Assembly: GCF_025526975.1 (NCBI RefSeq)
Contig: NW_026515680.1
Span: 620,001 to 684,000, forward strand
DNA length: 64,000 nt
Origin: Fimicolochytrium jonesii
Taxonomy: Eukaryota
Direction of reading: 5' to 3'
Under the pieces are notes generated by a model. It was not told the DNA's origin, ran no database searches, and saw only the letters and a program-made list of their open reading frames with translations. Both the position numbers and the translations under genes were made by a program. Numbering within the stretch: the stretch's first letter is position 1; every line of letters starts with the position of its first letter. Below are positions 22,598-55,718 of this stretch, piece by piece.

Positions 22598-24779
22598 TCA
22601 ACTTACCGGAAAGCCAACACCCGCAAAAAACGCCGCCCGGGCATCGAGCACGGCGGCGGCTGGTGCAGCCGCACCTGCGTACTGTTGCCGGGGCTGCTGG
22701 TGAGGAGGGGTGGTGGTGTCGGTGGTGGTGGGGATGGTGGTGTGGGGGTGTGCGGGGGTGGAAAGAGGAGGAGCGATCGCTGGCGCCCATCCCCCTTCTG
22801 GATGAGGAGGAGGAGGGTCCGGCGGCGGAGGAGGCGGCGGAGGAGGAGGACGACGAGGACGAGGAGGCGGAGGGACCGGCGGCGGCGGAGGAGGACGACT
22901 ACGACAATGAGGGACCGGCGGCGGCTTTGAGGTTTGCATTTGGGCCGTCATTGCCGCGAGGCGTCGCTCAAGCTTGCGCGCCCTCTCCGCAGCGCGTAGG
23001 ACCTGGCGCTTGCTCAGCTCCCTTTTCGCGACGCGCCCGTCGCGATTGGCGGCTTGGGAGTCCGTGGGCAAGCCGGCATCCGAGTACCTTGGCCCCGCGT
23101 ACGACTTTGACCGCCGGTCTTTCTTGGCCACGGTGGGTGAGTGTGCGGTGAGTGGGCGGAGGTTTGGGTGGAGAGGGTTGGGTGGATGGTGGGGGTGTAC
23201 CCACCGAGTCTCCAACCATACGCTGGTGTGTACCCACCCCAAAACGAGCCCAGCCGTTCCCCACGAAAGCAACCAAACGTTCACAATCTGCCACTTCAGC
23301 TCCCCTCTCCACAGCGCCTGTGGCAAGGCCAGCAGCTGAACATCCACCTTCTTCCCCGCCTCCAATGACGCCGAAAGCAGGCGGACCATGGTGAGAAACC
23401 CGACGGATCCCCACATGGACTCCCCGATGGGGACGTATAGACGCATAAGCGTGTACACCATGGCTGCAAGGTGAACAGATCCTTGCCATTCCACAAAACG
23501 CAATGCGTGGAAAGGATTTATCCGCCAGCCCCAACCCCACATATGACCCATCTGACGCTGAAGAAAGAGGTTGGTGGTGAATTTTCAGAGCCGTCAGAGG
23601 TACTACGAAAACTGAGGAACAACATACCAGCGCTCCCCTCACACCTCCCGCTTTCGCACCCCCCCCCCCCCCCCCCCACCACCCCCACCAATCGTCTCCC
23701 AACCGACTTTCCAGCCAAACCGAAAAGTCCGCGCATCCCAAAATGCATCGAGTATGTGTTTTCCTTCCCTTTCCCGACTTTGATAGTCCCCAGCGCCATC
23801 CGTCCCTCTTCGATCTCCTATTCGCTGTCATTATTGATTTGGTGATGTCTTCCTGTGGTGAGGAATGTGAATGAGACCTTCTGACCGGCCGATATGAATA
23901 GTGCGGGGGGTTGAGAAGCGGGTGCGCGTGACGAGACGGCGCAAGTCGGCGGGGTCGGGGCCGCTGGATGAGGAGGCGTGGGTGGGCAGTTGTGACGAGA
24001 GTATGGAGGCGATCTCCGTTGGGGGGCGGCAGACGCCCCAGTGCCTTGGCCGCGAATCCTTGCGTGTCAAAGTCGGGCGTCGCGGTGCGCTTCACCTCCT
24101 CCGCGTTCGACTCGATTAGTGCGTTTTCCATCTCGGCGTCAATGTCGATGGCAGAGACACCAGCTCCGACACCGACATCCATGTATCCGGCCTTGCTGGC
24201 ACCAGCAATGTTTCCACAGCTCGCGAGACCGCTGGAGCATTGCTTGTTGACCGCGGAGAGGGCAACAGATTCTGGGTCTCCGGCATCGAGCGCACCCATA
24301 CGCGACGTGGTCACAGCGGCTCCGACACCGACATCGATGTATCCGGCCGTGATGGCACCAGAAATGTTTCCGAGACCGCTGGAGCATTGCGTGCTGAGCG
24401 CGGAGAGGGCATCAGATTCTGGGTATCTGGCGTGGAGCGTACCCATAGGCGACGTGGCTAAACCGTTCTTTGGCTTCGCCGGTGTTAGGTTGTCGTGTCC
24501 GTAGTTGTACTGCCCTTCGTTGACGCTCTCGCTGATCTTCTCATCGTTGCAATTGCCGTCGAATGGAGCCGTGGCGTGCTTGCAAGGGGGGAGGCTGTGG
24601 TGGTGCGGGGCGGGGAGTTGCTGTGGATGATGTTGGGACGGGTGGTGTCGATGCTGTTGCCTCTTCGACTCCTTCATGAAGGCCGCGAACATCGATGCTG
24701 TTGCCTCTTTGACTCCTTCATGAAGGCGGCGAACAAGAGGAACCGTTCGGTATCTTCTTTGAAGCTGATGGCAAGCCAC
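22598..24779 (-). CDS. Hypothetical low-complexity/membrane protein region (gene model unresolved)
   Basis: Overlapping long ORFs (603 and 317 aa) with hydrophobic segments near 23230-23510, poly-Pro stretches, and an AT-rich tract at 22250-22310 that could be a 3' end. Confidence 0.3.
24161..24432. repeat. Internal ~120-bp duplication, in frame in the minus ORF
   Basis: Copies at about 24161-24283 and 24317-24432 encode ES.ALSA...QCSSGL..GNI.GA..AGY.DVGVGA twice. Confidence 0.85.
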
Positions 24780-26419
24780 TGTGAATCTGTCGGAGTAGGA
24801 GGGATAGCTTTTCTCGACCTATTGGTATCGTGCCGCATATCCGGGAATGCGGCGGCAGCTACGTGTGGAGATGTCGGTTCGTATGCGGCGCGCGAGATCA
24901 GGCATCATCGTTTCGTGCGACACTTCAGATAGATACGGCGGTCTATGTTGGTTTGGCGGCATGTACATCATCGCTTGTGGATGCTGGTGTGGTGCGGGCA
25001 TTGAGTACTGTGGTGTAGGATCTGGCATGCCGGGGGTCCGGGATCACAGCAACCATATGAACCGTTTCCTGATGTGCTATATGATCTTGGTAATTGTATG
25101 CAGGAGGGGCCATTCCTCGAGGTATTTCGGACGCGAAATTTGCCACTGGACCCAGCGGAGCAGGATGCACAAATTCCTTTGGCCGGTCAGGTTGAATATC
25201 GTGTCATGGCAACGGATGTTGGTGGTGATGCTGTTGATGCTGGTGCTGATGCTGGGGATCGTGGAGACTGATATGCTGTGATGGGTTCGGATGCAGTGTT
25301 AGTCCTAGGGACGCTAGTGTCGCACTCAGAGGCGTCAGCTCGGGGATGACGGCCAGGGTATCGTGGGATGAGAGCGTGGTAGGGTGGCCGGCGAGGTTTG
25401 CGGCGAAGTTTCCGTCATCGCCGTCGTTGTCCGTCTCGGCGTACTCAAAGTTGGGTGGCATCTTGTATGATGCAGAGGAACTGAGATGAAGCGAATGCAC
25501 GAAGCTCGGAGGTATGGAATGAGTCTGGAAGCTAGTGTTAGGTGTCGAAGTACTAAGATCGTACAGCGAGCGTACGGTAGAGCTCACCCTAGCCCTAGCC
25601 CAAAGCGACCCGCATCACCCGGTAGAAGACCTTGCTTGCTCATCGGTCCTTGGTAAACCTGGACTGCACTTAAGAAACATATGATGAACTCAGATGAACT
25701 CGGGAGTTGTGTTCGATGAGCTTGCTTGATCACTCTTAACGAGTACATATTCAGCTTAGACCATGTCCAGCACTGTGTTGAGAGCGTTCACATCCTGTTC
25801 GGTCTAAGGCTACGTCATGTATATCGCTGATACGCCCTCGTCCAGGCTATATCAGGGATGGAAGCCGGTATGAGTAGGGGTCGAAAGTCACAACGAGAGA
25901 ACGTCAAAGAAAGATGTACCTGCGGATCAAGACGAAAAAGGTTGAACACAGCTTCCGTCTTCATCTGCAACTCCATGAGATTTGTTTCCAGAGTGCGCTG
26001 GGTTTCCTGCTGTTCTGAAAGATCCGTCGTATGCTGCTGGCCTGAGACTTCTTCACCCTGTTCCAGAGCTACGATACAAGACCTGGTATTGGCGAGATCC
26101 ACCGTTTGCCGGCTGAGCGTGGATTGCTGATCAAGCAGTTTGGACCTAAGACCCAGATGGGTGAAGTTAGAAAGCAGAGTCACATCACGCAGGCGGAGGT
26201 GGTGCGTGATGTGGCTCTGCTCCTTAACTTCGCCGATCTGGATCTTGTTGCTAGCTATGCCATTCTCGAGGGTTTGAACAGTTTCTTCGAGATGTTGCGC
26301 CCGTACACCGTTTGTACCATGTACCGTCCGTGTCCTTGGATCTGGAAGAAGAATCCAGTAAGAAAATGGAAGGACGATGATGACAACGAACCGACGATGG
26401 TGAGACTAACAGTCAGTTT

Positions 26420-28342: not shown

Positions 28343-31300
28343 ATGACCATTACAGACACTCGTCCAACTGTTCCCGCCGCTGGCAACCGCAACCCTCTCG
28401 GCGCCGGCGGTCTCTTCTCGCTGCTTACCGTATCGTGGCTCAGCCCACTCGTTAACCTCGGCTTTGAGCGTCCTCTCGAGCTGGAAGATGTCCCGCCGCT
28501 CGGTCGAGGTCTGCAGGCCGGCCCTCTCGCTTCGAAATTGGACGTCTACTGGGACGAGTTGGCCCGTTCTCAGGGTAGCAGCAGCAGAGGCACACACAAA
28601 CCGCCGAGCTTGTTGTGGCATATTGCCAAGGTTGCGGGAGGTGCATGGATGCTGTCAGGTGTCGGCGTCACTCTCGCCGTGGCTTGTGAGCTAGCAAGTG
28701 CTGTCATTCTGCAGCAGCTTGTTATGGTCCTTGCTCCCCACGGCTCGGACACGTTCGTGTGGATCGACTCGGCTGCGACTCTCGCCGTGACCCTGTTCTT
28801 GCTGCAACTGGTGCGCTCAGCGGCACGCTCGCTGAAGTCTTCCTTTGATATAGTGGTTCGACTGAACTGCCAGTCTCTGCTGACGGTACGCCATTATTGA
28901 ATCATTCGATGAGACATTCCGATCAGTTTCCTAACATCCGTCATCTCCACAGGGCGTTATCTACGAAAAAGCCCTCCGATTACACTGCTCCGAAACGCAA
29001 GAGTACTCCGAGGGCCGCGTCATGAACATGATCAGCGCGGATGTGAAGGACATCTTTGCCTCGGCTTCCGATCTGCATCTCGTCTGGCTCACTCCGGCTC
29101 AACTTGTGGCGACGCTGATCTTGCTGAATCGCTTGATTGGATGGTCTATGTGGGTCGGTATTGGATGCATGTTGGTCCTCATGACCATCTTGATGGCGTT
29201 CGCTCCGGTTTACGAAAGATTTTGTGAACTCTTTCTCGAGCATGAAGATACCCGCCTCAATAAGATCCGCGAAATGCTTTTGGGTAAGAGCGTGGGCAAC
29301 GGGGTCCTCACCAGAGAGTCGCTGGCCGTACAGGCCAACTCATGGCTTCCCGTCCGCTTACAGGTATCCGCATGGTGAAACTCCGCGCCATGGAATCAAT
29401 CTTCGCCAATGAAATCAACAGCATGCGTGACAAACAAATCGACGCCCTAAAAAGCAAAGTCGGCGTCAACACCTTCGCTTGGACATTAACAGCGCTCATC
29501 ACAATCATCATGCCAGTCACGTCATTTCTAGCGTTCGCTTCTCGATCGGATGGGACGTTCTCCGCAAGCATCATCTTCCCCGCGCTGGCGCTCTTCAGCG
29601 CCCTCGCTGAGCCGTTGAACTTTTACCCGGGGATGTTGACGGATGTTTGGAAACTGCGGGTGTCGTGGGCCCGTGTCGCTGGGTTTTTGCGTGCGCGTGA
29701 GGTTGATCCTGTTCGCAAATCGGTGGACAGCGAGAATCCGTATGATGTTGAGGTCGTCAATGGTACATTCACTTGGGCGGCGGCGGCAGCGGATTCCGGA
29801 GAACCATCCGAAACGGATCCGTTGCTATCATCTGAAGCCCGTCCTGCTCCCATCTTGAAGGGCGTCGACGTCTCCATACCCTCTGGAGCACTGATGATGG
29901 TTGTTGGAGCAGTCGGCTCAGGAAAATCGTCGTTCCTCTCTGCGTTGCTGGGCCATATGGTTCAGATATCTGGCGAGGTGAGCTCGCAAACTGGTTTTTT
30001 GGGCGCGCCCACTCGTACCAACGCTTACATAGGATGTTACATCTTACAGACAAAGATGAACGGCTCGACCGCTTACGCGCCTCAACAGCCGTGGATTACT
30101 ACAGGGACAATCAAAGACAACATCGTTTTCAACGCAGCCATCAACGACGCAAAGCTCAAACAAGTCATCGAGGCTTGCTGTCTGGAGAGTGATTTAGGGC
30201 AGATGCGAGCCGGATTGGAGACCAGTATTGGAGAATTGGGCGTGAATCTGTCAGGCGGGCAGAAGGCCAGGGTGGCTTTGGCTAGGGCTGGGTATGCGGA
30301 TGCTGGTATGAGTCGTGGTTTCCCGAAAAAGTTTCAGTGTGGCTGCCCTACTGATCTGAACCTCCAACAGATATCATACTCCTGGATGATCCGCTCGGCT
30401 CGCTCGACCCGGTCGTCAGTCGGGACGTTTTTGCGAAATGCATCCAAGGGGTACTTGCTGGCAAAACTCGAATCCTCGTTACCCACCAGCTCCATCTCCT
30501 CCAACATGCGGATCATATTATTGTCTTGAAGGAGAACAGTATTGCGGAGCAGGGCACGTACACGGACCTCATGGCAGCAAACGGCACTCTTTCCGCCCTT
30601 GTGAAAGATCATCAAGTGGACGACGCCGCACCAGCTTCTTGCGCACCCGAGATCTTCAACGCTGAAGACGTCCCGGAAGCTTCCGCGGAAGGAGACGACG
30701 ACTTCCAAAAAACCGAATCCCGAATCCGTGGCCGCATCAGCAAAGCCCATCTAATGGCGTACATCCGGTCCATCGGCGGCTGGAAGATGGTCAGCGTGAT
30801 TCTGATGTCGGTGTCTGTGAAACAGGCGGCGTCTGTTATGGCTGCTGTTTGGCTCGCGTGGTGGTCTGAGAAGCATTTTGCGGATTTCACACAGGGTGAT
30901 TATTTTGAGGTTTATGGAGGGTTGGCGGCTGGGCAAGCTGTTTCTATCAGTACGTATCAGTTTCGGCTTCTGTTTCAATCGTTTGCCCGGTTCCGAGGAT
31001 TTATCCCCCTTACTTCCTACAGGTCTCTTCCTCGTCGTGGTCTACTACGCCGGGTTCCGCGGCAGCAAATACTTCCACCCGGCCGCCCTCCAAAACATCC
31101 TCAGGTCGCCCCTCTCCTTCTTCGAACGCGAACCCATCGGCCGTATCATGAACCGCTTCTCGGGCGACCTCGACACTATCGACGATGACCTACCGTCCGA
31201 GCTACACCTCTTCCTCACCAACCTCTTTGACCTCCTCGGCACGTTCGCCATCCTCACCTGGGTATCCTATTGGATCGTCGTCATCGCGGTTCCCATTGTC

Positions 31301-32717
31301 GCGTGCTACTGGCACCTCCAGCGGAGGTATCGCCCCGTCGCGCGTGAAATCCGCCGTATGATGGCCATCCAACGCTCTCCACTCTTCGCCTACATCTCCG
31401 AATCCCTCGCGGGCGTGAACGTGATCCGCGCATTCTGCCGCGAAAAGGATTTCATCGCGACGCAGAGACGGCATTTGGACGCGAGTTTGGAGGTGAATGT
31501 GATTCGTGCGGCGTGTACGGTGTGGTTGGAGTTTCGCTCGGAGTTTCTGGCGTCGTTTGTGACGTTGGGGATGGCGCTTGTCGGGGTGTTGTCGGAGGCG
31601 GCGGCGGGGTTTGTGGCGCTGGCGTTAGTTTATACGGTGGCGTTGAATACTAGTGTGCAGGCGTTCGTCAAGTAGGTATCTCTCATTCCTCCTTTGAAGC
31701 TCTGGTACCGTTCTCACACAGCTTACTCCCATCAGGTCAAGCGTAGATCTCGAAGCAGCCCTCGCGGCCGTCGAACGTCTCTCCGAATACGCCACCGATC
31801 TGATCCCCGAACCACCTGCCAACCTACCCACCGATCCCACATCAACCGAGTGGCCCACCGAGGGCAAGATCGTCGTAACGGACCTCAAAATTGCATACCC
31901 CAGCAATCCCGACGCACCTGTTCTCAAAGGTCTCACCCTCATCATCAACCCAGGCGAGCATATCGCAGTGGTTGGACGTACAGGATCCGGCAAGTCGACA
32001 TTCATGAGCGCCTTGTTCAGGGTCGTTGAATACACCTCTGGTTCAGTGACCATCGACGGCCGCGATGCCAGCACTCTCGGTTTGAATGTCCTACGTTCAA
32101 GTATCCAGATAATACCCCAGGACCCGGTTCTGTTCGAGGGTACCATCCGCTCCAACCTCCTGCTCGGGCATGCAAACTGGACCCATCATGCGTCCATCAC
32201 CGATGCCGACATCTGGTCCGCAATCCGGCGCGTCGGGCTCGGCAAAATGGTCGAAGACCTCCCCGACAAGCTCGACCACGCCGTCGAATCCGGCGGTCGG
32301 AGTCTGTCATTCGGTCAACGGCAGCTGATTTGTCTTGCGCGAGCGTTGCTTGAACGGCCGAAGATCTTGGTGCTGGATGAGGCGACGGCGAGTTTGGATG
32401 CAGAGGCGGATGCGATGGTGCAGGATGTTATTGCAAGGGAGATGAAGGGAGTTACGGTTATTTCTGTTGCGCATCGACGTGAGTTTTCTTTTGTGTTGGC
32501 GAGCCCCATGTCGATGTACTTACTCGCCCCATTTCCCTTTCGTTCAGTGCACACGATCGCAGGCTTCGACCGGGTCCTCGTCCTTGACGATGGTGAAATT
32601 GTCGAATCAGGAACTCCCACGGAATTGCTGAGAAATTCGGAAACTCATTTCAACCGTCTTGCATCCGCCATGGGCATGGCGAACCGTGAGGCGTTGGTGA
32701 GGGCTGCACAGGCGTAA
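28343..32717 (+). CDS. ABCC/MRP-family full-length ABC transporter (Yor1/Ycf1-like), about 8 exons
   Basis: Lasso motif FSLLTVSWLSPLVNLG; NBD1 GAVGSGKSS, LSGGQKARVALARA, LDDP; TMD2 FFEREPIGRIMNRFSGD; NBD2 VGRTGSGKST, LSFGQRQLICLARAL, LDEATASLD. Confidence 0.96.
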
Positions 32718-33056: not shown

Positions 33057-36000
33057 TCAAACGTCCAATTCTTCCTCCGATGCAGGCGCTAGCGCTGCCG
33101 TTTTCAGAGGCGATTCTGCGCGAGACGCCATCGACCGCGCTTTGGATGTTGCACCCCTCCCTCTCGCAAGATCCAGCTTTCTCACCCACTCCTCAAGCGC
33201 CCTCTGGCTTTCCATTTGCACTCGCAGTCGTTCACCGCCCGGCAGTTGCAGCAGCAAACTGTTGTCGGTCGTATCCGCTTCCACGCTAACGCTGTCGATG
33301 ACGTAGAATCGTCCCTCTTTGGTGTCGATGTCGGTGAAGTCGATGTAGTTCTGGACCACTGATATCTGAACAGCTCGCCAGACGAGCGCAGCATCGGGTT
33401 TTACGGGGAGGTATTTGATTTTCTGGTAGATGCTTTGCGATTTTTGAGATTTCTACGGAAGAGTTTGAAGACCGACCAGATGAGATGATTGCTTTTTTGA
33501 TGATGGCATATGTCGACAGAAGCCTATCCATACTCACCAAAGCAATCGCCTTGATTTTCGCTTCCATGGCGTCCTCGATCTCGCCTCCAAGACCGTAGAG
33601 CAGCCAAACCTTGTAACCAAGGAATGATGCGGTCATAGCAGCCGCAACGACAAACGTCACTGCGGTTCGCAGCGCGAATTGCGCGATCCCGTTCATCATG
33701 TTTGGAAGTAGAATGCCGGCGGACAGGATTCCCGTGATGCCCATGTTTGCAGCGTTCACCAGCAGCAGCCTATCTTCGAGTGCAGGAACAGGCCAGCCCA
33801 CTTTGATGGTCTCGTAGGCGAGCTTGCACGCCGTCAGCAGGATTGTCCCCGTGATGATCATCAGGCAAGTTATGAAGCCGATCTGCTTCTTTTCGGTTCC
33901 CCAGCAGATCCAGAAGCGATCTTGCGATGCGTATGTCAGTTGGGGAGTCGGCGCCTCCACGACTCTCCATAGGGCAACCAGAATCTACATCGGAAGGAGA
34001 CATAATGTTATGCGACGTGATGAAAAGATGAGTCCAGCGTCCGCCTGCTGCATTGGATACGTACGACGAAAAGAACTAGTGTTGCGGCAAGTGCACTCGC
34101 TGTTACTTTCTTGAAAGCCATAGAGAAGTCCGTCCCTAAGGCCATCTTATTCTTTCGTCGGGTATAATGTCCCCATGATTTGAGCATAAGACATCTGCGC
34201 GGCAGAATGGGTGAGCAACACCAACGCGGTTTAGCGGTACCTTCGAAATTAAATGCGAACTTACGAGGATGTCAGCCCGAAGGAGCAGGGAAGCATCCAT
34301 ATCTGCACCCGGCATGATAACGCAGTTGGCTCTACGGTGTCGGTGATCGGCAGTGCGAAGAGGCAAATGAGGCCGAGGGCTAGAACCCTGTGAACGATCA
34401 AGATACCTCGGATTAGTCATTGGCTATCCGGCCGGCAGATTCACGAGCAATCGACTCACATATTCAAGTTCCGCGTGGTGCCCTGAATCGCCTGTCCATT
34501 GCGCTTCATGAACAGCAGTCCCGCAAGCGCCAACACCGTCAGCATACAGATACCAGAGATCACGATGACCACCATAGATCCAGCGCTCGTGATTTTGGTG
34601 TTGGCCAATGCACCTTCGAGAACTTGTACACCCATCGTTTCCGGTGACGTTAACGTCTGTTGCAGCTTTGCAGACGCCACCTTCAGCTGCCGGTAGTCGA
34701 GGAATGCTCCACTTTGCGCATCCATTAGAGAGAATTTCATGTACACAGTGTCCGCGCCATCTCGTCGAGCTAGGTTCGCATGCCCAGAGGTCCAAAAATT
34801 GCGATAGATGACATTGTACGTGTTATTGTAGACCTCCTTGATTTTGTTGACCATACGATCGCGTCCGTCCACGGAGTAATCGAAAACGTCGGATGAACCC
34901 GTAAAGATCGGGGTCTGAGAGTCAAAGGAAAAGGTGAGACTGTCGTTCTCGCTTTTTCTCATTTGGCAAGCGATGCCCTCGTAGGCGGTATCGGTGCATG
35001 TGCAGTTCCCGTCCGATACGCACACGCCGGCCGTGGATGAACAACCTAACGAGCATTGGGGAGATCGACATTCAAGTTCGGGGGTGCCTGACGCAGCTAG
35101 CAGTTTGCGAGGCGGATCGCAGCGGGAGATGGTGAGCGACCGGAGTAAAGGGGAGAACTCGGAAATGTCGGTTCCGGAATCGTCGACCAATTTGATCCGG
35201 TAGGTTCCCGGACTCCCGAACACTCGTACATCTACAGATTCGGAAGCTGGTCAACCTCAGATCCGTATGAACGCGCAGAGCAAATCGAACTCACTTTCGA
35301 AGGTCAATTTCCCATTATCGACAACACCCATGGTCGGACCATACAGGGTAGCCACCCTCGAGATTACCTCATCCCCGTCCATATCAACCAACGCGATCTT
35401 CACAACCGCCGCAGTCTCCTGCTCGAACCCAATGAACTGCCCATAGGCGTCATATGTCGATATCCCGAAGATTGGGAGAGTGTCTCCCGGTAAAAGGATC
35501 ACGTCATCCCAGTTCCCAGACGGGACGAACGTAGCGGATGCAGTTCCCCGGTCGGGTAGCAGCGGCGCCGAGTTATCTGCATATGTCACAGAGATGAAAT
35601 CTAAGGATTTGCGGGCTCCGGTGTACCATGCGCCGCCGTACTGGAGCGCCGTGTTTTCGGTGAAGGAGACGTTTTGAACCACGAGGTTCGGCTGGCTGGT
35701 GAAGCGCTCGATGAAGAGGGCGCCGCCGTTGTTTGCAGTGTTGTTTGTGAATGTGCTGAACGGGGAAATGAATGAGTGATGCGAGAGAGCCTTGGGGGAT
35801 CTGGGACCCGTCTGCTTACCTGTTAACAATGGTGATGCTGCACCGTCCAGCGTTGACGTTGCCGTAAATCGCCCCCCCTCGACCTGCGGCTGTGTTAGAA
35901 TTGAACGCGGAGTTTGTGAAGCTTGCCGTGCCGTCGCAGTCACTGAGGATTGCACCGTCGTTTGACGTCCAGTTCTCTACGAAGGCGAGGGTTGAGTAGA

Positions 36001-38551
36001 TCTTCAGCACATAGGCGTCCGGGACGCATCGTGAAACACCCACCGACGAACGTGCACTTATCAACGCTGAAACTGCTGCCTGAGCCCAGCTCTAGGAGCG
36101 ATGCGCCCCTGCAGTGCTGGAACGAGGATGCTTCCAATTGGAGAGTGGATAAGGAACCAGAGAAGATCGTGTTCGCTAGCCCCTCGAAAGTGACCCCTTG
36201 GATCAACGTAGTCGGCCAATCCTGATCGGTTTCTGACCGTTCTAATCTGAATAGCGGTTCGCCGGATGAAAGACCTAGCGAAAACCAAAATTAGCATTTG
36301 CATGGCATTTCAATCATATGGCCTGCGAAAAGTGCGTTACTTACGGGCGAGAATCGTGTCTGTAATCGTCAGATCACCCATCTCGAAAACATGGAAGCAA
36401 TGCGCTGCACATCTTTGATCTTCCGAGAGCATGTCAGTCAGAAAGAGGTTTGCAAAATCCGTATCCCGAATTCACACAAGAACCAACCATCGATCGTCAC
36501 AGAATCCAGAACAGCCTTCGACGTGCCATTCAATTGCAAGATGGCTGTCGTCACGTTGATATGAAGATCAGTTGTGATCTTCGAATTGGTTAAAATGAGC
36601 ACTCCCTTTGACGTTATTGCGAACAAATATGGCATCGCAGGGCTTCCCGGGAGCACCGCCTGGTTATCTACGTAGCATTGCATCAGCGACGGGTCGTCAT
36701 GCAGCCACCCTTCGTCACCGAACTTACTGGTCATTAGCGCGTCGTCGATCGTGAGCGTTCCGAGCACGTTCGTTTGCCCGACATTTCCTACGGACGTGAT
36801 GAACGGAATGCCACCCGAATAGTCGTTCATGCTTGCCAACGTACCAGATGAAACGAAGTTTGATATCTCGACCGTCGCCAAACTTCCAATGAATATCAAG
36901 TCCGTCGGTACGGGTAGGATCGCATCCATGAAGTTTGAATACACCGGTTGAGCGCCAGGGAAGTTTACCGTACTATCTGACATGTTGGGGGCATGAGATG
37001 AGCGCTGGTTTCCACTAGCGAGAAGCAATCAGTTTAGAGAAGGCTCCTACCGACGATGGATAAGCCATTGATGATATTCGTGCCGCGCCTTATGTCTAGC
37101 ACACGCCCGCTCCAGCCTAATTGTACGATGATCAGCACCAGGGAAACAGCAGACGGATCAGTTCCATCGTCGTTTGAGTACCTTTGATTGTCACCGCTGA
37201 CAAGGATCCCCCTTCCGATGACTGCATGCTCAGCACAGAACTGCACCAATGCTTGGGGTTCGACAAATCGTTCTTTTCGATGTGCACATTGGTCAGGGTT
37301 GTCTGACCGGATCCGGCTGTTTGCTGACGGTGGGACGTAGATTAGATACACAAGATGCGTAGGATGACTTCCGGAAGAACGATCCACTCACAGTGATCAC
37401 CGAAGCACCCTCCAGACATAGGCTAAGAGTCGGCAGGCAGGGTCAGCTCAACATTTCGGTCGCCGCGGTCCGTGAATCGACAGCAAACGTGGCCTTACGG
37501 ATCTAAATGGCCAGTTAAACCGGGTTGGGGAAGAGAGACCCTAAAACCCTATCACATGATATACAACTCACTTATGATGACAATATTTGTCAAATCGGTG
37601 GATACGGTTCCGGATCGCGCTTGAAAGATGGAGGGGCCTAGGATAGGTTAGGACTTGCGAATCCAATGCTGCCTAATGTGAGGTGCATCGGCTTGGGCGT
37701 ACCTTTAAAGTATAGATCGCTAATGAATACCATAGCGTTCGGGAGGGTTGGGTAGTAAAAGACGCCTGCGAGGTGCATGCATTTCAAGTTAGATCAACCC
37801 GGCAGATTCATCCGTAGGTTGGCACCTAGCTTACCTTGCAAAACTTTGCAGCCAGTGTACGTGACGGTATCTGACAAATACACGAACCAGTCCAAATACA
37901 CGAACCAGTCCAGTTCGAGTTTAAGGGACAGAACATCGACCATGCTGTCGAAGTCGGGTTGGGGGCCCCCTGCGTCGTGTATTTAGAATTTTTGAATTAT
38001 AGGAATCGTAAGATGGCTTCCACTTCCATGTCATGCTGTGATATACCAGCGAAAGTGACATTGTCAAACGTCAGAGACACCTCCAACTCGGGGTTGCTGA
38101 ACATAAATAAGAAGGTGGAGGGATCGGAGGATTGCTCAGGCAGCCCGAAAACGACGTTCGAGAATGCAATGGAAGGATCGTCGCCAATGATCGACATTTG
38201 AACCACGGAACCCTCTACCAAAGGGCCGCGCACGATCTTCGGCCCGCCGAGCACATTCCAAGACTCTTCCGTTCCTTGAATCGCCAAATTGACGGACAAA
38301 CCATACTCGGCTTGATTCAAAGGATAGTCTCCGGGGGAGATGAGGTGAATTCGTTTGTGGCCTCCATTGGGGCCGAGCAGAGCTTGATTTATGGCATCGT
38401 CCAGCGTCCCCCAAGGGTTTGATTGCGTTCCATTCCCGCGAGACTCAGGTGCATTGCGGTCCACGTAGATGTCGATGTCGCCTCGAACTACAGGTAGAAG
38501 CGACACGCACAGAAGCGCAACCAACGTAACACACAAACTTCTGCGTTGCAT
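33057..38551 (-). CDS. Divergent class C GPCR-like receptor: signal peptide, right-handed beta-helix ectodomain, EGF-like, SEA-like stalk, 7TM, PH-like tail (many exons)
   Basis: Signal peptide MQRRSLCVTLVALLCVSLL; YVD...GNGTQSNPWGTLDDAI; F..NTA..GGA(I/L/W)(Y/F) repeats; EGF-like CSLGCSSTAGVCVSDGNCTC. The spliced TM2-TM4 read VLALGLICLFALP...SCRVQIWMLP...LMLKSWGHY, and TM5-7 lie in ORF 33286-33960. The tail ends ...ESQRALEEWVRKL. Confidence 0.8.
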
Positions 38552-38962
38552 GTCGAGGTGTCTAGAAAACTCAGTAAGGCGGCTAGTTTGAGGTTTGTAC
38601 TTGTATGTCCAAGACGGCATCCAGGGTTTGCTCCCTTGCAATCGGCAGACGGATTATGGGAGGGAAAGGTACAGGGCAGGGAGCTTATCTTCCTGGACTT
38701 CTGTTTTCAACATAGTTCAAAGCTCCGACAATGCCTTGCGTCGGCCATTGTTTCGATGACTTGAAAGCATCGACAGAAATCGACAGCGCGTTTGTGGAAT
38801 GTTCCATGTCTCCCAAATGGGAACCGTAAACGAATTACAGAACGGCTTACTTGAATGTACTCCGTCCTCCCCAGCAGAGCTCGCTCGGCCCGCATAGTTC
38901 TCGATGACCGCGTCTAAAAGGCAAATGGGAAATATGTTAAGCGTACGACTGCAGAGGCACCA

Positions 38963-39061
38963 GGATTCGTTTTGGACTGCCTTTTTACTTACCCCGGATT
39001 CGTTTTGGACTGCCTTTTTACTTACCCCGAATTGTTTGGGACTGCCTTTTTACTTACCCCC
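38963..39061. repeat. 33-bp tandem repeat x3 in the shared promoter region
   Basis: GGATTCGTTTTGGACTGCCTTTTTACTTACCCC twice, plus a diverged third copy. Confidence 0.92.
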
Positions 39062-39104
39062 TGACAATTCCACCTCCATCTGCCAGACAAAGCGACACTT
39101 TACA

Positions 39105-42100
39105 ATGTACAACGGCACTACAGCGCTGAGTGTGCTTTGCGTTCTATACCTGCTTGCATGCCCGGTTCTTGGTGAGTGCATATTGGATGTGCCGGCGATC
39201 CGGGTTGACACTAATCGACGTCCCAATGGCATCCGCAGGGATTGACGTGAACCTTCTGGTGGATGGGACCCTGTCGGCGGATGCGCCGCCCTCGTTTATG
39301 AGCATCGGAAACGGTAAGAGTCGGCCCCGCCACCGCATAAGAGTTGAGACTACCTGTCATTGACATTTGCATCCTGACAGCTTGGGAGTACGCAATAGCT
39401 CAGGCGAAAGCGCAACAACCAACAAATCCGACCATCACATTAACCTTCCGTCCGGGCTCCTACCAGATCCCACTAAACAGTACATCAGCCGAGAGACAGT
39501 TTGGAAATTGCACGCTCAGACATGTGGCCGAAACGCCGGGAACCGTGAGTCTGATTGCGCCGTTCCGCCAAGCGCGCCAGGACGCTATATCGACGATCAC
39601 CAGCCTGAGCGAATCGAAGTGGGGCAAAAACACTACGTTGGAGTTCACTGGCCTCACGGTATCCGTCCCGGATACGAAGCTCTTTGCGTTCAAGCTTGAA
39701 GGCCTTAATGCCCGTTTGAACATCACAGACTGTACCTTCATTGGTAACGTAGACGCTGGAACGCAATTTCATGCGAACGTCAACTTCTGCAATAATTGCG
39801 GCGCTTACATTCGAGATCGAACACTCTGCAGGAGGCGGGAACTACTCGCGAGCCTATTTTCGTGTTGGATCACCAGACATCGCTCGTCAGGCTAGTCTGA
39901 TTGTGACTCGATCCGTCTTCCGGAGTAAGTCACGCGATACAGGTTCCCCTCCAATTTCGAGATCGATCATCACTGACTAATGAGGAATCAGACATTCAGC
40001 AGGACATCGCAGTATACGGTTATACAAGCGTTACTGTGAAGGGAGGCGGGACCGACACCGGCTACAGATGGTTTAATACGCTTTTCAGGGCGGAGGCTGG
40101 AAACGTAACCATTGAAGATTGGACAGTCACCGGAAATGGCGACTCGGCGGCACCCCTAGTGTCTGTTCTGCAACACAATCAGACGCCAGGAAGGAGGGAG
40201 GCAGCTTTCTGGTATTCTGGATTAATTATGAGGAATGTGCTCATCAAAGGAACGAATTTCGGAGGGCCCGCCTTTCGGTTTGAAGCAGGCTACATTCGTC
40301 TGTTCAATGTAACTATCAGCGATTGTACCACGTTCGGCGGGATTGTCGGCACCACCCGCCTCTTGCAAAGATCCCTCATGCGGATTTATGCTGACACGAA
40401 GGTCACCATTGACGGAATGCGTGTCACAAGTAAGAAGGGAGGAGAGGTTCCAAATAAGTTCATTCTGAAAAAGACTCTCTCTCTGCCAGACACTAGCTTG
40501 GAGACCGGGGTCGACTTTTGGCAATCAATGATATCGATGGCCATGACGAATTCATACTTTGGAGGTAGTTTTGCGGCATCGCCGGGACATCAGTGGGCGC
40601 GATCTAGACACCCGCACTTCGATCTTACAGGGAATACGTTCCAAAGATGCTTCGACACCACGGAGAACACCCGGATCAACCTGACCGGGGTCACGTTTGG
40701 TGAGCGGCGATTGTCCCTATTGCTCGTCTATTGCGCATGACATTAATCCCTTCCAATCCCGTCTCTCCCATGTGGCAGAACGAAACAACTGCAACTTCAT
40801 GCTAATGTCCAACACGACCACACACATCGAGAATTCAGCGTTTATAGGTGCGCGACCGATAAGAGTCCCGGTGCATAGCCTCGTCATCCTGCGTCTGACT
40901 CTCAGGAATGAATTGTACAGACAACACATACGCAACCGGATCGCCCTTCTTTGATATATCGGCATCGGAATTCGTCGCCACGAACAGCACTTTCACCGGT
41001 GCGTAATACGGTCCTGCTTCCCTGTTCCTTGATCACCAAGCACATGCTCAACAGATTTGTATCATCCCAGGCAACCAAATCGGACGTAACTCCATGTTTT
41101 CTGTCAAGGAGCGCTCTTCACTGATACTCGCCGGGTCCGATATCGCCAACACCTACGCATTTCGGAGCGTGCTGTCCACAGACGCCTCGAGTGCTGTCGA
41201 GATCAAGTCCACGATCTTTCGTCGAAATGTCGCAGACCTCCGCGATTTGGTGAGCCTCAACTATGCTGGGAACATCAATGTCTCGGACAGCTCCTTCCTC
41301 GGTGAGTATCCCGGCCTCTCATTCCAGCCGTTGTGATCCTTAGGCTGATGGCTTCTGCTACCCCAGGAAACAAGGCACTGAGTGGAAACCTGATCAGAGT
41401 AGCAGCCGGTACAGGCCTAACGCTCAAGCGCTCCACATTTACCGCCAACGCCGGCTCCATCTCCATCGACGCTAGCGGCACCTTACGAATCCGAGATAGC
41501 ACATTGGAGAGCAACGGCCCGGCCCCGATCCTCTATTCCGAAGGCAGTCTAACCATCTCCGGCTCTACATTAACGAACAACTCGAGTCCCAACGGCGGAG
41601 CGATTTTGCATGTGCCCAAGAAGCAGAACGAGTACCTGATGGTTGATAGCACGGCTTTCGTCTCGAATGCGGCGGACGGCGATGGCGGGGCAATATATGT
41701 TGACGCGAGTGATTTTGATCCGTTGGTGTATAGCAATGTCACGTTTACGAACAACACGGCGAAGAGAGGAGGAGCAGTGTTCCAGTTGCAGAGCCAGTGG
41801 GCTAATGTCGGGTTCAACACGTCCGCGGGTTTGCGGATGACGAATAATGTCGCTGCGTGGCAAGGTACTTCCGTGCGACCCACGTGGAAGTTCTCGGGGA
41901 CATGAATCGAGGTCAAGATTGACGTCGAGACGCACGGATTTGGAACTTACGCTTTGCTCATCTCCCACGCAGGGAACGATCTGGCAACAGGAATCGCGTC
42001 CCTCGTTGTGGTCAACAAAACATCCTTCTCAAGCTTATCAGGCGCCTACCTGGACGACATCACTGTACGCGCTTTAGACGGTGAGTGTCTTCCGACCCAT

Positions 42101-44705
42101 CCAATACGCACCACCTCGGAATAACCGAACCATTTCACCAGCCTACGGCAACACCTTCCGCTCCCCCCGTTCCGCCATGCTCAAAATCGCCCTCACCCTC
42201 AACGGCACCGGCACCCTTGTCGGCTCCACATCCGGTTTCATCCTCACGGGCGAGGCTACTTTCAGCCGTCTGCAGCTGTACGCACCGGTTGGAAGCCAGA
42301 CGCTGCACGTGAAGCCCACAAGCGCGTCGTACGATCCGGAGCTGTACCACGCGGCCGTGACGCTGAATACGCTGCCGTGCGCGACGAAGGGGATGGAGGA
42401 GAAGGTGGTGGAGGCGAGTCCGTGGGCGGCGTGTGTGCTGTCGGTGTGTGCGGGCGGGTGTTTGTCGGATTATGGGTATTGTCGGGATAACTTCTGCATA
42501 TGCACGGCGGCGGATCGTGAAGGTTGGTTCAGCGTCGTGAGCTTTGAGACCTGAGTCCGCAACGTCCTCGGACTGATGGCCACTGCCTGACCAACCCCAA
42601 TAGGGATCAACTGTGGCCTCAAAAAAGGCAGCCGCGACGCCGTCAGCCTAACCCTCCCCTCCACCTGGGTCCCCAACGCCGTAAACCGAGACAAACTCCT
42701 ATCCTCCATCACAGCCAGCCTGAACGGGACAGCTACGGCCGAGTTCCGCTCCTACACCAGCACCCAATCCGCCAACAGCACGATTCAACGACGCGGCACA
42801 TCCACTAATGTCTTTACATTCGCCCTGCTTGATACGCGCGGGCAGTATATCGAGAGCAAAGCGCTGGCGACGTACGGTGCCGCTACCGTCAATGCGCTTC
42901 CGGGAGTTGTGAGTGGGAGCGTGAGCGTGAACACGGTGGAGTCACCCAAGGTCGTAGTGGCGAGCAGGGATGCTGTCAGTATCGTCTTCATGGTACTTGC
43001 GGCGGTATCCATCGCCACGTCAGTTGCGATTTCTGTGTTCTTGGTGGTGTATCGTGATGATAAGGCGTAAGTTCTGGGTAGTGTGACCACTCAATCGTCT
43101 TCACATACTCATGATCTCTTCCTCCCTGCAGAGTCAAAGCGTCGTCAATCCTTTTCAGCCAACAGATCATCTTTGGCGTCACGCTTGGCTACGCTCTGAT
43201 TTTTCTCGATATCGGCGAGCCAACGAAGGCGACCTGCATTTCACAAGTATGGGTTGGCGGGCTTGCTTTTACACTCGCTGTCGGGTGAGTGTTGGTAGCC
43301 GAAGGGCGGTGCCATTTTCCAAAATCATTGGTTGATCATGGGTGTGCAATCTGGGGCGTTATCAGAAACCTCATCGGCAAAAACTGGCGCATCTACAAGA
43401 TCTTCACGACGACGGGCAAGTCTAAGGCGGTGAAGGACAAAGATGTACTGATCCTCGTCATGGGAATCATGCTTTTGGAAATCGTAAGCTAGGATGCTTA
43501 CTCTCACGCGCGATGTCGTTCCGAAAACCTGCTGACAGGTCTTCATTTGCATAGGCCATCGACGCGATATGGACAGGACTAGCCCCACTCGAGCCAGTAC
43601 GTGCTCACTCCCATTCTCCAGCCTCAACATCGTTTCTCAACACTAACATCCCACCGCAACCAGGTGCTAAAATCTAACGACTCAAGCCGATTCTACATGT
43701 GCGACTCCGATGCGGCGGCAAACTCGGCCATGACGATTATTGCGCTGACCTACAAAGTGATTCTTTTGCTCATCGTCTGCGGGCTGGCGTTTCTGACGCG
43801 AGGCGTGGATGTGCTGTATAGCGAGAGCAAGGCCATTGGGGTGTCTTCATGTAAGTGTGATGTCCGGTTCTCGATCCTCATTTATCCCTGCTTGACGGAT
43901 CTCCTCACCCCTTTCTACAGATACGATGCTCCTATCCGGCCTAATCATCATCCCCCTCGTCTTCCTCCCCCAAACAACCTCCAAATCCTCCTTCTACCTC
44001 AAATCAACCGGTATCCTCATCTCAGGCCTCGTAACAACCTTCTCCCTCTTCTGGCCCAAACTCTGGCTCGCCGTCTTCACCGACATGACTACACGGAGCA
44101 TTTCCCGAACGTCCAAGCGGCGCGGGAGCAGGAAAGCGCGATCGCAGACGGGCGGCGGGCAGAGAGGGTCGATTATCTCGGGGGAGAGCGCGCGGTCCGG
44201 CAGCACCACGCAGTACCAGGGGCAGCCGACGGAGGAGGATACGAGGGTTGTGCAGACGCCGGCGGACTGCTCGTTGTATGTGAGGAGTGGGCTTGTGGGG
44301 AGGTTTCAGGCGGGCGAGATTTGGATGGATATCGAGACGAATATTATTTTCGTTTGGCGGGTGTCAAAGGAGGGGGTAAGTGGCTATGGATGCTTCCTTG
44401 TTTTGGAGGAACGAATCAACCACATCTCATCTCATCCACTCTTCTCTTCTCTTCAGACGCGGGGAGATATCCCAACTTCAGGCGTATCCTTCCGCCTACA
44501 ACATCTGAAACTCTGCAGCTGGGACCAATCCGACAACTTCCTGCTACTCCAAGCCGGCGAAAACAGCTTACAGCTGACGTTCGCCAAGAGTGGGGTACTG
44601 CGTTCGTACGTGGCCGAGATTCAGGCGCGGATTGGTGAGTTTGAACTTTCGCAAGTGGGGATAGTGACGGCCAAAGCTGACCCAAAGATTTCATTTGCGT
44701 TTTGA
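39105..44705 (+). CDS. Class C (GABA-B/7tm_3-like) GPCR with beta-helix ectodomain, EGF-like, SEA-like stalk and PH-like tail (many exons)
   Basis: Signal peptide; NGGAI/DGGAIY/RGGAVF repeats; EGF-like CAGGCLSDYGYCRDNFCIC. The 7TM carries VKASSILF, TCISQVWVGGLAFTL, KNWRIYKIF, LAFLTRGV...YSESKAIG and FWPKL, all hallmark class C motifs. Confidence 0.9.
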
Positions 44706-54437: not shown

Positions 54438-55718
54438 TTATGTTTCACGCATGTCCTCTTCCGCAGTTTGTTGGTGGAGCCATTGAAGGATTTCCGGCAC
54501 GTTTGCGTGGATGCGGCCCAATCGGATTTGCTTTGGGGTATATCCTTCCTTTCGATGTGTGAACAGCCACTGAACAACTGCTAGATCCCCCTTCTCAATC
54601 GCGGCGTCCATGGCGTCTTTCGTGCATCCCTCCTTTCTATGGAAATGCAGGAACTTGACCACGTTGAGGTGACCCCCTGCAGCCGCTTTATCCATGGCTC
54701 GCGTGGTACAGCCTTCAGCTCTGTGGAAATGCAAGAATTTCACCACTTCAAGGTGACCTGAGCCAGCAGCCAAATCCATGGCCAATGCTGTACAGCCCTC
54801 CTTGCGATGCGTGTGGAGCCATTCGACTACTTCGAGGTGACCGTTTGCAGCCGCCCAATTCATCGCATATGTCGTACATTCGTTGCCATGGGTGTGGAGC
54901 CACTTAAGAACTGATAGGTGACCAGACCTAGCTGCCCAGTCCATCGCCCGGTACGTGCACCCTTCCGAACGGTTATCGTGAAGCCATTCAATCACCGAAA
55001 GGTGGCCATTGTCAGAAGCATAGTTCATTGCTTGTTCACTGCAACCTTCCAATCTGTTTTCGTGAAGCCATTGCGCTACCGCCAGATGCCCGTTTCCGGC
55101 CGCATGGTTCAATGCTTCCCGCGTGCACCCTTCCAATCTGTTTTCGTGAAGCCATATCACCACGTTAAGGTGTCCCTGTGCAGCTGCCCAGTCCATCGCG
55201 TCTGCACTGGCCATCCCTTCCGGCCCGTGGTCATGAAGCCAACGGACTATGGCGAGGCGACCAGCGGCGGCTGCCTTATCCAGTGCCACGTAGGGATCTG
55301 CTTCGAAGTTAGGCCCGCACGAGGGCACAAGGTGACGTTGAGTGACAACCCGCCTCAGTTCGTTCGGGTACTTGGTGTGGATCCATTGCGCGATATCGAG
55401 ATGGTCGTTGTCCAGAGCGACTTCGATAGCGCTGGCTTCTACACACCCGGAGATACTGTACTTGCACAGCCAACGCAACGCTTCTAGGTTGTTCGATCCC
55501 CATAAGTTCGGGCAGGCATAAGCTGGGGAAGAGAGGAGCTTCCTTTTGACTGCCTCTCTCTTGAAAGCGATTGCATAGTGCACCGGAAGATATGAGAGGA
55601 TATGATCGAATATTTCGACGGGAAATCGTGGAAAGTTGGGAATGCCGCCGGTGGGTTGGCCTTTATCGGACAGCAAACGTCTACTACAGGCCTGTTGATA
55701 TGGCTGGGGTGGATGCAT
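54438..55718 (-). CDS. F-box plus short ankyrin-repeat protein, intronless
   Basis: FPVEIFDHILSYL (F-box-like), then about 9 repeats of CT..AMD.AA..GHL.VV.WLH..R.EG. Confidence 0.9.
   Translation of the reverse strand: MHPPQPYQQACSRRLLSDKGQPTGGIPNFPRFPVEIFDHILSYLPVHYAIAFKREAVKRKLLSSPAYACPNLWGSNNLEALRWLCKYSISGCVEASAIEVALDNDHLDIAQWIHTKYPNELRRVVTQRHLVPSCGPNFEADPYVALDKAAAAGRLAIVRWLHDHGPEGMASADAMDWAAAQGHLNVVIWLHENRLEGCTREALNHAAGNGHLAVAQWLHENRLEGCSEQAMNYASDNGHLSVIEWLHDNRSEGCTYRAMDWAARSGHLSVLKWLHTHGNECTTYAMNWAAANGHLEVVEWLHTHRKEGCTALAMDLAAGSGHLEVVKFLHFHRAEGCTTRAMDKAAAGGHLNVVKFLHFHRKEGCTKDAMDAAIEKGDLAVVQWLFTHRKEGYTPKQIRLGRIHANVPEILQWLHQQTAEEDMRET

What the first reader, a model, noticed from the sequence alone, without database searches (positions are those of the whole stretch)
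33057..44705. Head-to-head pair of beta-helix class C GPCR paralogs: candidate obligate heterodimeric receptor in an early-diverging fungus
Seen: two ~5.5-kb multi-exon genes start 553 bp apart on opposite strands (ATG 38551 and ATG 39105). They share one domain order (signal peptide, GGA(I/L/V)-repeat beta-helix, EGF-like, stalk, 7TM, PH-like tail) but have strongly diverged sequences, so this is not a recent duplication. Known: class C GPCRs work as dimers, and GABA-B1/B2 and T1R taste receptors are obligate heterodimers. Class C receptors with pectin-lyase-fold ectodomains have been reported from anaerobic gut fungi, so the ectodomain alone is not new. Inference: a bidirectional promoter co-expresses two subunits of one receptor, which may sense polysaccharide or surface cues. 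I know of no description of such a paired locus.
Basis: partly seen in the sequence, partly recalled or inferred. Interest (0 to 1): 0.9.

Follow-up and report, generated by a model that had tools for sequence, protein, structure and literature searches.

The report
Linked unequal chytrid class C receptors
A chytrid fungus has two head-to-head genes for GABA-B-type seven-helix receptors that stay neighbours in most related genomes checked, and one of the two lacks the residues that animal receptors of this type need to switch on a G protein, so the pair likely works as one two-subunit surface receptor.

Summary
Two intact multi-exon genes (A, minus, 1410 aa; B, plus, 1408 aa) start 553 bp apart in Fimicolochytrium jonesii. 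They share one layout: beta-helix, Ig-like, EGF, ferredoxin/SEA-like, class C 7TM, PH-like. They are 24% identical.

The pairing is conserved. In 7 of 8 other assemblies holding both genes, the records are consecutive or within three accessions. A second, diverged A/B pair is adjacent in Spizellomyces 'palustris'. A and B types form separate supported groups.

The two are unequal. B keeps TM3 Arg3.53/Ile3.57/Phe3.58; changes at Arg3.53 or Ile3.57 abolish GABA-B2 signalling. All 14 A-type rows lack all three but mostly keep the inactive-state lock (Arg3.53: 0/14 A, 12/12 B, 27/27 other class C).

Best reading (about 0.55): an asymmetric heterodimer in which B couples to G protein and A is a non-coupling partner. 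Binding, co-expression, cleavage and ligand are untested. Beta-helix class C receptors are known from gut fungi; I found no description of this pairing.

The parts
33057..38551 (-). Gene A, 19 exons, 1410 aa: A-type class C receptor, predicted non-coupling subunit
   Evidence: Model; orthologues 37-51% identical; residues 1077-1410 identical to deposited piece P0044
35560..38479 (-). Gene A right-handed beta-helix ectodomain (about residues 25-700) ending in three GGA/Pmp-type repeats
   Evidence: Pfam Chlam_PMP on two exons; AlphaFold2 model of orthologue P0001, mean pLDDT 81.8, all-beta over about 25-680; Foldseek top hits are beta-helix PL6 lyases and tailspikes at low TM-score
34588..34965 (-). 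Gene A ferredoxin/SEA-like juxtamembrane domain (residues 878-1003), after Ig-like and Cys-rich/EGF modules
   Evidence: Beta-alpha-beta-beta-alpha-beta order in two models; the two Atlas feature hits shown are SEA clusters at 0.76, a lead only; no Pfam SEA hit
34762..34773 (-). Gene A dibasic motif LARR (residues 942-945) in the beta2-beta3 loop; predicted Kex2-type cleavage site
   Evidence: the loop has pLDDT under 50 in the models of homologues
33601..34587 (-). Gene A 7TM domain (residues 1004-1258), divergent class C
   Evidence: 7tm_3 46-75 bits in 5 of 5 orthologues scanned (cut-off 33.5); A-profile best PDB hit mGlu1, E 9e-17
34155..34181 (-). Gene A end of TM3: Lys3.50 kept (K1092); 3.53, 3.57 and 3.58 are Gly1095, Arg1099, Arg1100 instead of Arg, Ile, Phe
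   Evidence: numbering through B's alignment to GABA-B2
33165..33422 (-). Gene A C-terminal PH-like domain (about residues 1290-1375), after a short linker
   Evidence: Seven strands plus C-terminal helix in the model of paralogue P0040; Pfam PH E 0.048 on P0040, below cut-off; 53-57% identity to orthologues
38552..39104 (.). 553-bp spacer between the start codons; candidate bidirectional promoter (inferred)
   Evidence: Sequence; length and 49% GC; no transcript data
38960..39060 (.). Three tandem 33-bp copies in the spacer, 45-145 bp upstream of the gene B start codon
   Evidence: role unknown; one of 29 tandem-repeat rows in the window
39105..44705 (+). Gene B, 20 exons, 1408 aa: B-type canonical class C receptor, predicted G-protein-coupling subunit
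   Evidence: Model; orthologues 50-55% identical; residues 739-1174 identical to deposited model P0007
39171..41864 (+). Gene B beta-helix ectodomain (about residues 23-690) with three GGA repeats
   Evidence: Pfam Beta_helix 35.8 bits and Chlam_PMP 40.3 bits on exon 11
42615..42968 (+). Gene B ferredoxin/SEA-like domain (residues 858-975)
   Evidence: Aligns with the A domain; Atlas structure neighbours are mostly ferredoxin-fold domains (S6, EF1-GNE, ACT), TM 0.48-0.64, all under the tool's bar; no feature hit
42783..42794 (+). Gene B dibasic motif IQRR (residues 914-917) in the same loop; predicted Kex2-type site
42969..44069 (+). Gene B 7TM domain (residues 976-1224), canonical class C
   Evidence: 7tm_3 on three exons; 133-173 bits in 5 of 5 orthologues; best PDB hit GABA-B2, E 4e-17
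43379..43405 (+). Gene B end of TM3 with K3.50, R3.53, I3.57, F3.58 (K1064, R1067, I1071, F1072)
44070..44243 (+). Gene B Ser/Thr-rich tail linker with an RRxS motif; A has a short linker without it
   Evidence: 7 of 7 B1 rows versus 0 of 6 A1 rows
44244..44633 (+). Gene B C-terminal PH-like domain (about residues 1283-1385)
   Evidence: 49-56% identity to three orthologues; fold inferred from position and from A; not modelled; no Pfam hit on these exons

Best explanation
Genes A and B are two old, linked class C receptor paralogues that likely assemble into one asymmetric heterodimer, in which B would activate the G protein and A would act as a non-coupling partner. Shown: both genes are intact; the linkage recurs in relatives; A and B types form separate groups; B keeps and A has lost the TM3 residues 3.53/3.57/3.58, while A keeps Cys3.29 and mostly the Lys3.50-Glu6.35 lock. 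Inferred: the spacer co-expresses both; the 7TM domains pair as in other class C receptors; the two long beta-helices bind a surface or polymer outside the cell; a Kex2-type protease cuts the loop of the SEA-like domain so that the ectodomain stays attached non-covalently and could be pulled or shed; the signal leaves through B's TM3/ICL2, with B's Ser/Thr-rich tail as the regulated site and the PH-like tails as lipid or G-beta-gamma docking modules.
For: Linkage: consecutive records in 5, within three accessions on a contig of the same length in 2, of 8 other assemblies with both genes. A second pair only 29% and 35% identical to A and B is also adjacent; I chose it from tree symmetry before seeing its origin. 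In one Geranomyces assembly the order is A, B N-terminal piece, B C-terminal piece, so B's 5' end faces A. Trees: A 14 rows and B 12 rows each form one side of a branch at 100/96, with three mirrored subgroups. Asymmetry: Arg3.53 in 0/14 A, 12/12 B, 27/27 other rows; Phe3.58 in 0/14, 12/12, 26/27; A keeps Lys3.50 in 13/14 and Glu6.35 in 12/14. In GABA-B2, R577A (3.53) and I581W (3.57) abolish signalling, and GB1 binds ligand while only GB2 couples (PMC8222003, PMC9360005). A's 7TM is still 47-65% identical among orthologues, more than its N-terminal beta-helix at 30-43%, so it is maintained. Dibasic motif in 31 of 42 stalks against a shuffle mean of 4.9 (max 12 of 1000), and 32 per 5204 residues against 6 per 23,683 in the rest of the ectodomain. 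SEA domains are cut in the beta2-beta3 loop (PMC6954182).
Against: An extra A type and an extra B type in P. arcticum are on different contigs, as are the A-like and B-like proteins found in Blastocladiella; their true partners are unknown. The Thoreauomyces pair is on two short contigs. Neighbourhood can simply be inherited from an inverted duplication, and I could not measure background synteny among these genera. Orientation of A in relatives is unseen. No GABA-B-type long coiled-coil tail is evident (linkers 26-32 and 54-61 aa) and gene B's tail has no RxR motif. The adjacent S. 'palustris' A2 protein lacks the dibasic loop, as do 13 of 42 rows. SEA identity rests on topology and sub-threshold hits. 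A and B labels come from the same alignment in which the residues were counted, and several rows are near-duplicates.
Confidence: 0.55

Rival explanations
1. A and B are co-regulated but work separately. B is a homodimeric G-protein-coupled receptor. A is a G-protein-independent adhesion or scaffold 7TM protein that signals through its PH-like tail, or a decoy/modulator that only sometimes meets B.
For: B has every canonical motif and its own full ectodomain, so it needs no obvious partner. A has its own conserved intracellular motifs and PH-like domain. Some A and B types are unlinked.
Against: A and B subgroups mirror each other, and both known linked sets join one A with one B. Class C receptors act as dimers with one coupling protomer (PMC8222003).
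Confidence: 0.27
2. The linkage is only a relic of an old inverted duplication, kept by ordinary synteny. The two proteins have since taken unrelated roles and are not co-expressed.
For: Two introns lie at identical column and phase in A and B, and a third within one column, so they arose by duplication. Background synteny was not measured.
Against: The pair stayed adjacent through a further duplication that left about 30% identity, and the spacer is only 553 bp.
Confidence: 0.12
3. A does couple to G proteins, by a changed interface built from its conserved basic RRKNK stretch and altered ICL3, so the locus encodes two receptors with different G-protein preference.
For: A1 proteins keep an invariant basic ICL2 motif and a conserved ICL3; lysines in ICL2 contact Gi in GABA-B2.
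Against: Arg3.53 is present in all 39 non-A rows and absent in all 14 A rows; the basic motif is not kept in the A2, A3 and Blastocladiella-type rows.
Confidence: 0.06

Closest known systems
Gut-fungal class C GPCRs with pectin-lyase-fold/beta-helix and EGF-like ectodomains (PMC5168858; passages and a supplement term search seen, Figure S2 not readable)
   Same: Beta-helix plus EGF-like ectodomain on a 7tm_3 domain in a zoosporic fungus, without a Venus flytrap domain.
   Different: That study used transcriptomes; its main text has no occurrence of 'dimer'. In what I saw it reports no linked pair, no non-coupling subtype, no SEA-like cleavage loop and no PH-like tail.
GABA-B receptor GB1/GB2 (PMC8222003, PMC9360005; passages seen)
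   Same: B's best solved relative is GABA-B2. The proposed division into a coupling and a non-coupling subunit is the same.
   Different: No Venus flytrap domain, no long coiled-coil tail seen, PH-like C-terminal domains, and the two genes are neighbours. That the GB1 and GB2 genes are unlinked is recalled, not checked.
SEA-domain receptors cut in the beta2-beta3 loop: GPR126/ADGRG6, Notch, MUC1 (PMC6954182; passages seen)
   Same: Ferredoxin-like juxtamembrane domain with a dibasic motif in the beta2-beta3 loop.
   Different: Here it sits on a class C 7TM, not an adhesion GPCR, with no GAIN domain. SEA membership and cleavage are not shown.
Chytrid rhodopsin-guanylyl cyclases RGC1/2 with NeoR (PMC7655827; passages seen)
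   Same: A tested case of an obligate heterodimeric membrane receptor built from paralogues in a chytrid.
   Different: Microbial rhodopsin-cyclase, unrelated to class C GPCRs; the passages give no gene linkage.
Fungal glutamate-class (class 16) GPCR catalogues (PMC3251606, passages and section 20; PMC12842992, passages and one supplement row)
   Same: Class C receptors are abundant in Chytridiomycota and Blastocladiomycota; 11 are counted for F. jonesii.
   Different: Section 20 of PMC3251606 lists periplasmic-binding-type ectodomains and no beta-helix. Neither main text contains 'dimer'.

Membership tests
Class C GPCR 7TM (Pfam 7tm_3) - gene B | 7tm_3 above the curated cut-off, seven helices | tested here: met
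   One exon alone scores 37.8 bits (cut-off 33.5); orthologues 133-173 bits
Class C GPCR 7TM (Pfam 7tm_3) - gene A | 7tm_3 above cut-off and class C fold | tested here: met
   Orthologues 46-75 bits over nearly the whole profile in 5 of 5. Model of paralogue P0040 matches class C chains at Z 22-23, rmsd about 3, about 250 aligned, above class A at Z 17. The window's own pieces score only 16 and 23.7 bits; its whole 7TM could not be scanned in one piece.
Class C GPCR 7TM | Cys3.29 and the Lys3.50-Glu/Asp6.35 ionic lock | tested here: met
   A: C1071, K1092, E1200; B: C1043, K1064, E1166; definition from PMC11621567
G-protein-coupling class C protomer - gene B | Arg3.53, Ile3.57, Phe3.58, ICL1 serine | tested here: met
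   R1067, I1071, F1072, S1012/S1013
G-protein-coupling class C protomer - gene A | Arg3.53, Ile3.57, Phe3.58 | tested here: not met
   G1095, R1099, R1100; none of the three in 14 of 14 A rows. Columns 3.57/3.58 depend on local alignment; 3.53 is anchored by Lys3.50.
mGlu / GABA-B / T1R subfamilies | Venus flytrap (ANF_receptor) ectodomain | tested here: not met
   The ectodomain models as a beta-helix; no ANF_receptor hit in 10 orthologues
Obligate heterodimeric class C receptor (GABA-B type) | Physical A-B complex required for surface delivery or signalling | not testable with these tools
   Needs co-purification and signalling assays
Obligate heterodimeric class C receptor (GABA-B type) | C-terminal coiled coil masking an RxR retention signal | tested here: inconclusive
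   Linkers are short; B's tail has no RxR, A's has two in or after the PH-like domain; no coiled-coil predictor was run
SEA domain | Ferredoxin-like beta-alpha-beta-beta-alpha-beta fold | tested here: met
   Secondary-structure order in two AlphaFold2 models; ferredoxin-fold neighbours at TM about 0.5
SEA domain | Sequence or structure match to SEA family members | tested here: inconclusive
   Atlas feature hits to SEA clusters at 0.76, under 0.9; none for B; no Pfam SEA hit in 20 proteins; the domain was not folded and searched alone
SEA domain | Cleavage in the beta2-beta3 loop | not testable with these tools
   Motif present in that loop in 26 of 42 rows by my reading; cleavage not shown
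PH domain | Seven-strand sandwich with C-terminal helix | tested here: inconclusive
   Pattern present in the P0040 model; Pfam PH 14.6 bits, below cut-off 25.1; fold searches were filled by the 7TM
Polysaccharide lyase / hydrolase beta-helix enzymes | Conserved catalytic acid/base residues on the helix | tested here: inconclusive
   Invariant charged residues: 2 in six A1 sequences, 10 in five B1 sequences; not mapped onto a groove; Foldseek TM-scores 0.1-0.2

The most novel reading that the evidence does not exclude
Chytrids evolved, independently of animals, a gene-linked obligate class C heterodimer with a G-protein-dead subunit and a coupling subunit. Its protease-cut SEA-like domain makes it a Notch/adhesion-GPCR-style sensor that reports attachment of the beta-helix ectodomains to a substrate, for example when a zoospore settles.
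Probability: 0.25. Interest if true: 0.9.

Novelty: new variant of a known kind. Interest (0 to 1): 0.72.

Why it matters
The tested heterodimeric class C receptors that I know are animal (GABA-B, taste receptors, mGlu pairs; recalled). A conserved, linked fungal pair with one subunit stripped of coupling residues would be an independent case of the same division of labour, and the linkage names the partner in advance. That makes a so-far orphan fungal receptor family testable: single-gene expression tests would fail if both subunits are needed. A cleavable SEA-like domain on a class C receptor would join the class C and adhesion/Notch styles of activation, and bears on how chytrid zoospores recognise a surface. 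A related species, Spizellomyces punctatus, can be transformed (PMC7213984, seen as a search listing only).

Tried and rejected
No whole genome is held for this window, so no paralogue census or synteny baseline was possible. No RNA holder was listed; this says nothing about expression.

The complex prediction on the two 7TM domains of the Powellomyces orthologues returned no answer (score 0.00 in two runs, alignments not used, no controls folded). It is evidence neither way.

A search with B exon 14 found only the gene's own deposited piece. Metagenome scans for genomic DNA of relatives found nothing for A. For B they gave 18 loci, all distant 7TM-only matches without ectodomain or partner; all 18 were set aside. 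Orientation in relatives therefore could not be read from DNA.

A deep origin of the A/B split is not established. The Blastocladiella A-like protein and an unnamed relative join A in both trees but on long branches. BLAST puts the Blastocladiella protein nearer B (144 versus 111 bits), and an AU test does not reject grouping them with Blastocladiomycota B-like proteins (p 0.18).

Pfam SEA was not hit. The wide VIA search of the ectodomain model could not be run. I recalled that human GB1 lacks Arg3.53 but could not confirm it, so it is not used.

Pseudogene or assembly artefact was rejected: both frames are open, with orthologues in several genera. Recent duplication was rejected (24% identity). 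No third paralogue lies in the window.

Literature searches showed no paper on such a pair in the listings. The library lacks most subscription journals. Figure S2 of PMC5168858 was unreadable and the sequence supplement of PMC12842992 was cut; both may bear on novelty. Earlier scan notes: nothing by place or sequence.


Full report
Observation. Three-frame reading and coordinate-built models give gene A on the minus strand (38551-33057, 19 exons, 1410 aa) and gene B on the plus strand (39105-44705, 20 exons, 1408 aa). Neither has an internal stop, and all 37 introns are GT-AG, 58-108 nt. The start codons are 553 bp apart. A and B align at 24% over 741 aa. Two introns share column and phase, and a third is one column off, so the genes are old duplicates. 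A deposited piece identical to B names the organism as Fimicolochytrium jonesii, a Spizellomycetales chytrid. Deposited pieces match my models over A 1077-1410 and B 739-1174.

Anatomy. An AlphaFold2 model of an A orthologue (P0001, 24-sequence alignment, pLDDT 81.8) shows about 650 residues of beta-helix, an Ig-like domain, a Cys-rich/EGF module, a beta-alpha-beta-beta-alpha-beta domain and the first helices. Foldseek returns beta-helix PL6 lyases and tailspikes at low TM-scores, which gives the fold class but no ligand. A model of a more distant A-type protein (P0040, pLDDT 75.6) has seven helices that match class C chains at Z 22-23 and a C-terminal PH-like domain. Pfam 7tm_3 scores are 46-75 bits for five A orthologues and 133-173 for five B orthologues. 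B itself was not folded.

Linkage. A orthologues and B orthologues were found separately and their records compared. Eight other assemblies hold both. Consecutive in five: Powellomyces KAI8911189/190 and g01313/g01312; Geranomyces HDU88_006777/006776, KAJ3140495/494 and KAI8589268/269+270. Three accessions apart on a contig of the same length in two, where the B record lies farthest from A and covers only the C-terminal part: P. arcticum KAI9094675/678 and Gaertneriomyces KAI8998274/271. On two short contigs (10.9 and 14.1 kb) in one: Thoreauomyces. Three more assemblies yielded only one of the two genes. Adjacency is inferred from record numbers and contig lengths, not from DNA. In one Geranomyces assembly B is split and the order is A, B-N, B-C, so B points away from A; A's own direction in relatives is unseen. 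NCBI files P. arcticum under Chytridiales; I recall that phylogenomics places it in Spizellomycetales.

Wider family. A mixed A/B profile listed 150 representatives. I kept 53 rows for the 7TM tree: those scoring at least 20 bits on an A or B 7TM profile over at least 170 residues, leaving out six near-duplicates or out-of-frame models and all shorter pieces. A (14 rows) and B (12 rows) each form one side of a branch at 100/96. A quick tree on 33 rows of the juxtamembrane region shows three mirrored subgroups. I looked up ten of these proteins: four A/B sets guessed from the tree and composition, one A to test against a known B, and one further B-like protein. One guessed set is adjacent (S. 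'palustris' g04258/g04259, 29% and 35% identical to A and B). Two are from one species but on different contigs (P. arcticum, Blastocladiella). One could not be judged. The deep placement of the Blastocladiella A-like protein is unresolved. F. jonesii has 11 class C receptors in a published count (PMC12842992 Table S3).

Asymmetry. B aligns to GABA-B2 across the end of TM3. In GABA-B2, changes at Arg3.53 and Ile3.57 abolish signalling (PMC8222003, PMC9360005; passages). Arg3.53 is present in 0 of 14 A rows, 12 of 12 B rows and 27 of 27 other rows. Phe3.58 is in 0, 12 and 26; Ile or Leu at 3.57 in 0, 12 and 27. A keeps Cys3.29 in all 13 rows that cover it, Lys3.50 in 13 of 14 and Glu6.35 in 12 of 14, that is, the inactive-state lock (PMC11621567). 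Gene A and P0044 are the same gene and some rows are close relatives, so independent counts are lower. B1 proteins have a 54-61 aa linker with 28-38% Ser/Thr and an [RK]RxS motif (7 of 7); A1 linkers are 26-32 aa without it (0 of 6); three other B-type rows also lack it. A's 7TM remains 47-65% identical among orthologues. I infer that A is a maintained, folded receptor that does not couple to G protein.

Cleavage site. A [LIVM]-x-[KR]-R motif occurs in the juxtamembrane domain of 31 of 42 homologues (shuffle mean 4.9, max 12 of 1000), at 32 per 5204 residues against 6 per 23,683 in the rest of the ectodomain. The 42 include near-duplicates. In 26 rows it lies in the loop between strands 2 and 3, which has pLDDT under 50 in both models; in 13 rows the loop is absent altogether. 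Fungal Kex2 cuts after KR or RR (PMC6339444; passages). SEA domains of GPR126, Notch2 and MUC1 are ferredoxin-like and are cut in this loop, and cleaved SEA domains hold until force is applied (PMC6954182; passages). Atlas features point to SEA for A at 0.76, a lead only. B's domain gives ferredoxin-fold neighbours under the bar, and Pfam SEA is not hit. 'SEA-like' is therefore likely, not shown, and cleavage is predicted.

Mechanism. Most likely (0.55), the shared spacer expresses both genes, A and B pair through their 7TM domains, the beta-helices bind an outside surface or polymer, and the change passes through the EGF and SEA-like domains to B, which activates the G protein. Rivals are separate action of a B homodimer and a G-protein-independent A (0.27), relic synteny (0.12) and atypical coupling by A (0.06). 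Nothing here shows binding, expression, cleavage or ligand.

Comparison and novelty. Beta-helix/EGF class C receptors are described from gut fungi (PMC5168858; passages), and fungal class C receptors are catalogued (PMC3251606, PMC12842992, PMC5705715; passages). A term search of PMC12716839 found no 'heterodimer', 'head-to-head' or 'beta helix'. An obligate chytrid heterodimer is known for rhodopsin-cyclases (PMC7655827; passages). Searches listed no report of a linked pair, a non-coupling fungal subtype or a SEA-like cleavage loop on a class C receptor, within an incomplete library. Both genes belong to the 7tm_3 family but not to the Venus-flytrap subfamilies. Verdict: a real, conserved and apparently undescribed variant of a known kind; interest 0.72.

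Noticed in passing
window 38960-39060: Three tandem 33-bp copies (85-100% alike) in the spacer just upstream of gene B; possible regulatory repeat or chance minisatellite.
   Followed up: partly
window 37875-37912: An 18-bp in-frame tandem duplication inside gene A exon 2 repeats six residues.
   Followed up: no
window 37499-37502: A 4-nt micro-exon in gene A, needed to keep the frame and supported by orthologue alignment.
   Followed up: partly
window 39105-42603 and 35232-38551: Introns in the ectodomain-coding parts are almost all phase 1 (13 of 13 in B; 11 of 14 in A), a pattern that would suit exon-wise growth of the beta-helix.
   Followed up: no
window 43851-43920 and P0007: The deposited model of gene B starts at residue 739, retains intron 18 and runs out of frame, losing TM6-7 and the tail; gene A is represented by a 334-aa piece. 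Such split models may explain why the pair was overlooked.
   Followed up: yes
window about 29288-32717 (+): A full-size ABC transporter gene ends tail-to-tail with gene A. Further off: F-box (6218-7030), Josephin (11274-12170), PPR (12924-14861), thiolase-like (22971-24818) and ankyrin (54441-55736) reading frames (32 frames scanned, 24 without a hit). No G-protein or protease gene was seen among them.
   Followed up: no
P0026 (Sorochytrium record KAL7754353.1): A 3017-aa model whose C-terminal half is a B-like receptor and whose N-terminal half is unrelated; probably two genes fused in annotation.
   Followed up: no
P0086 (Blastocladiella) and P0059 (unnamed): Receptors of the same layout that also lack Arg3.53/Ile3.57/Phe3.58; either deep A orthologues or an independent loss.
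   Followed up: partly
P0021 and P0034: The dibasic motif has moved to a different loop of the same domain (after strand 1) in these two proteins.
   Followed up: no
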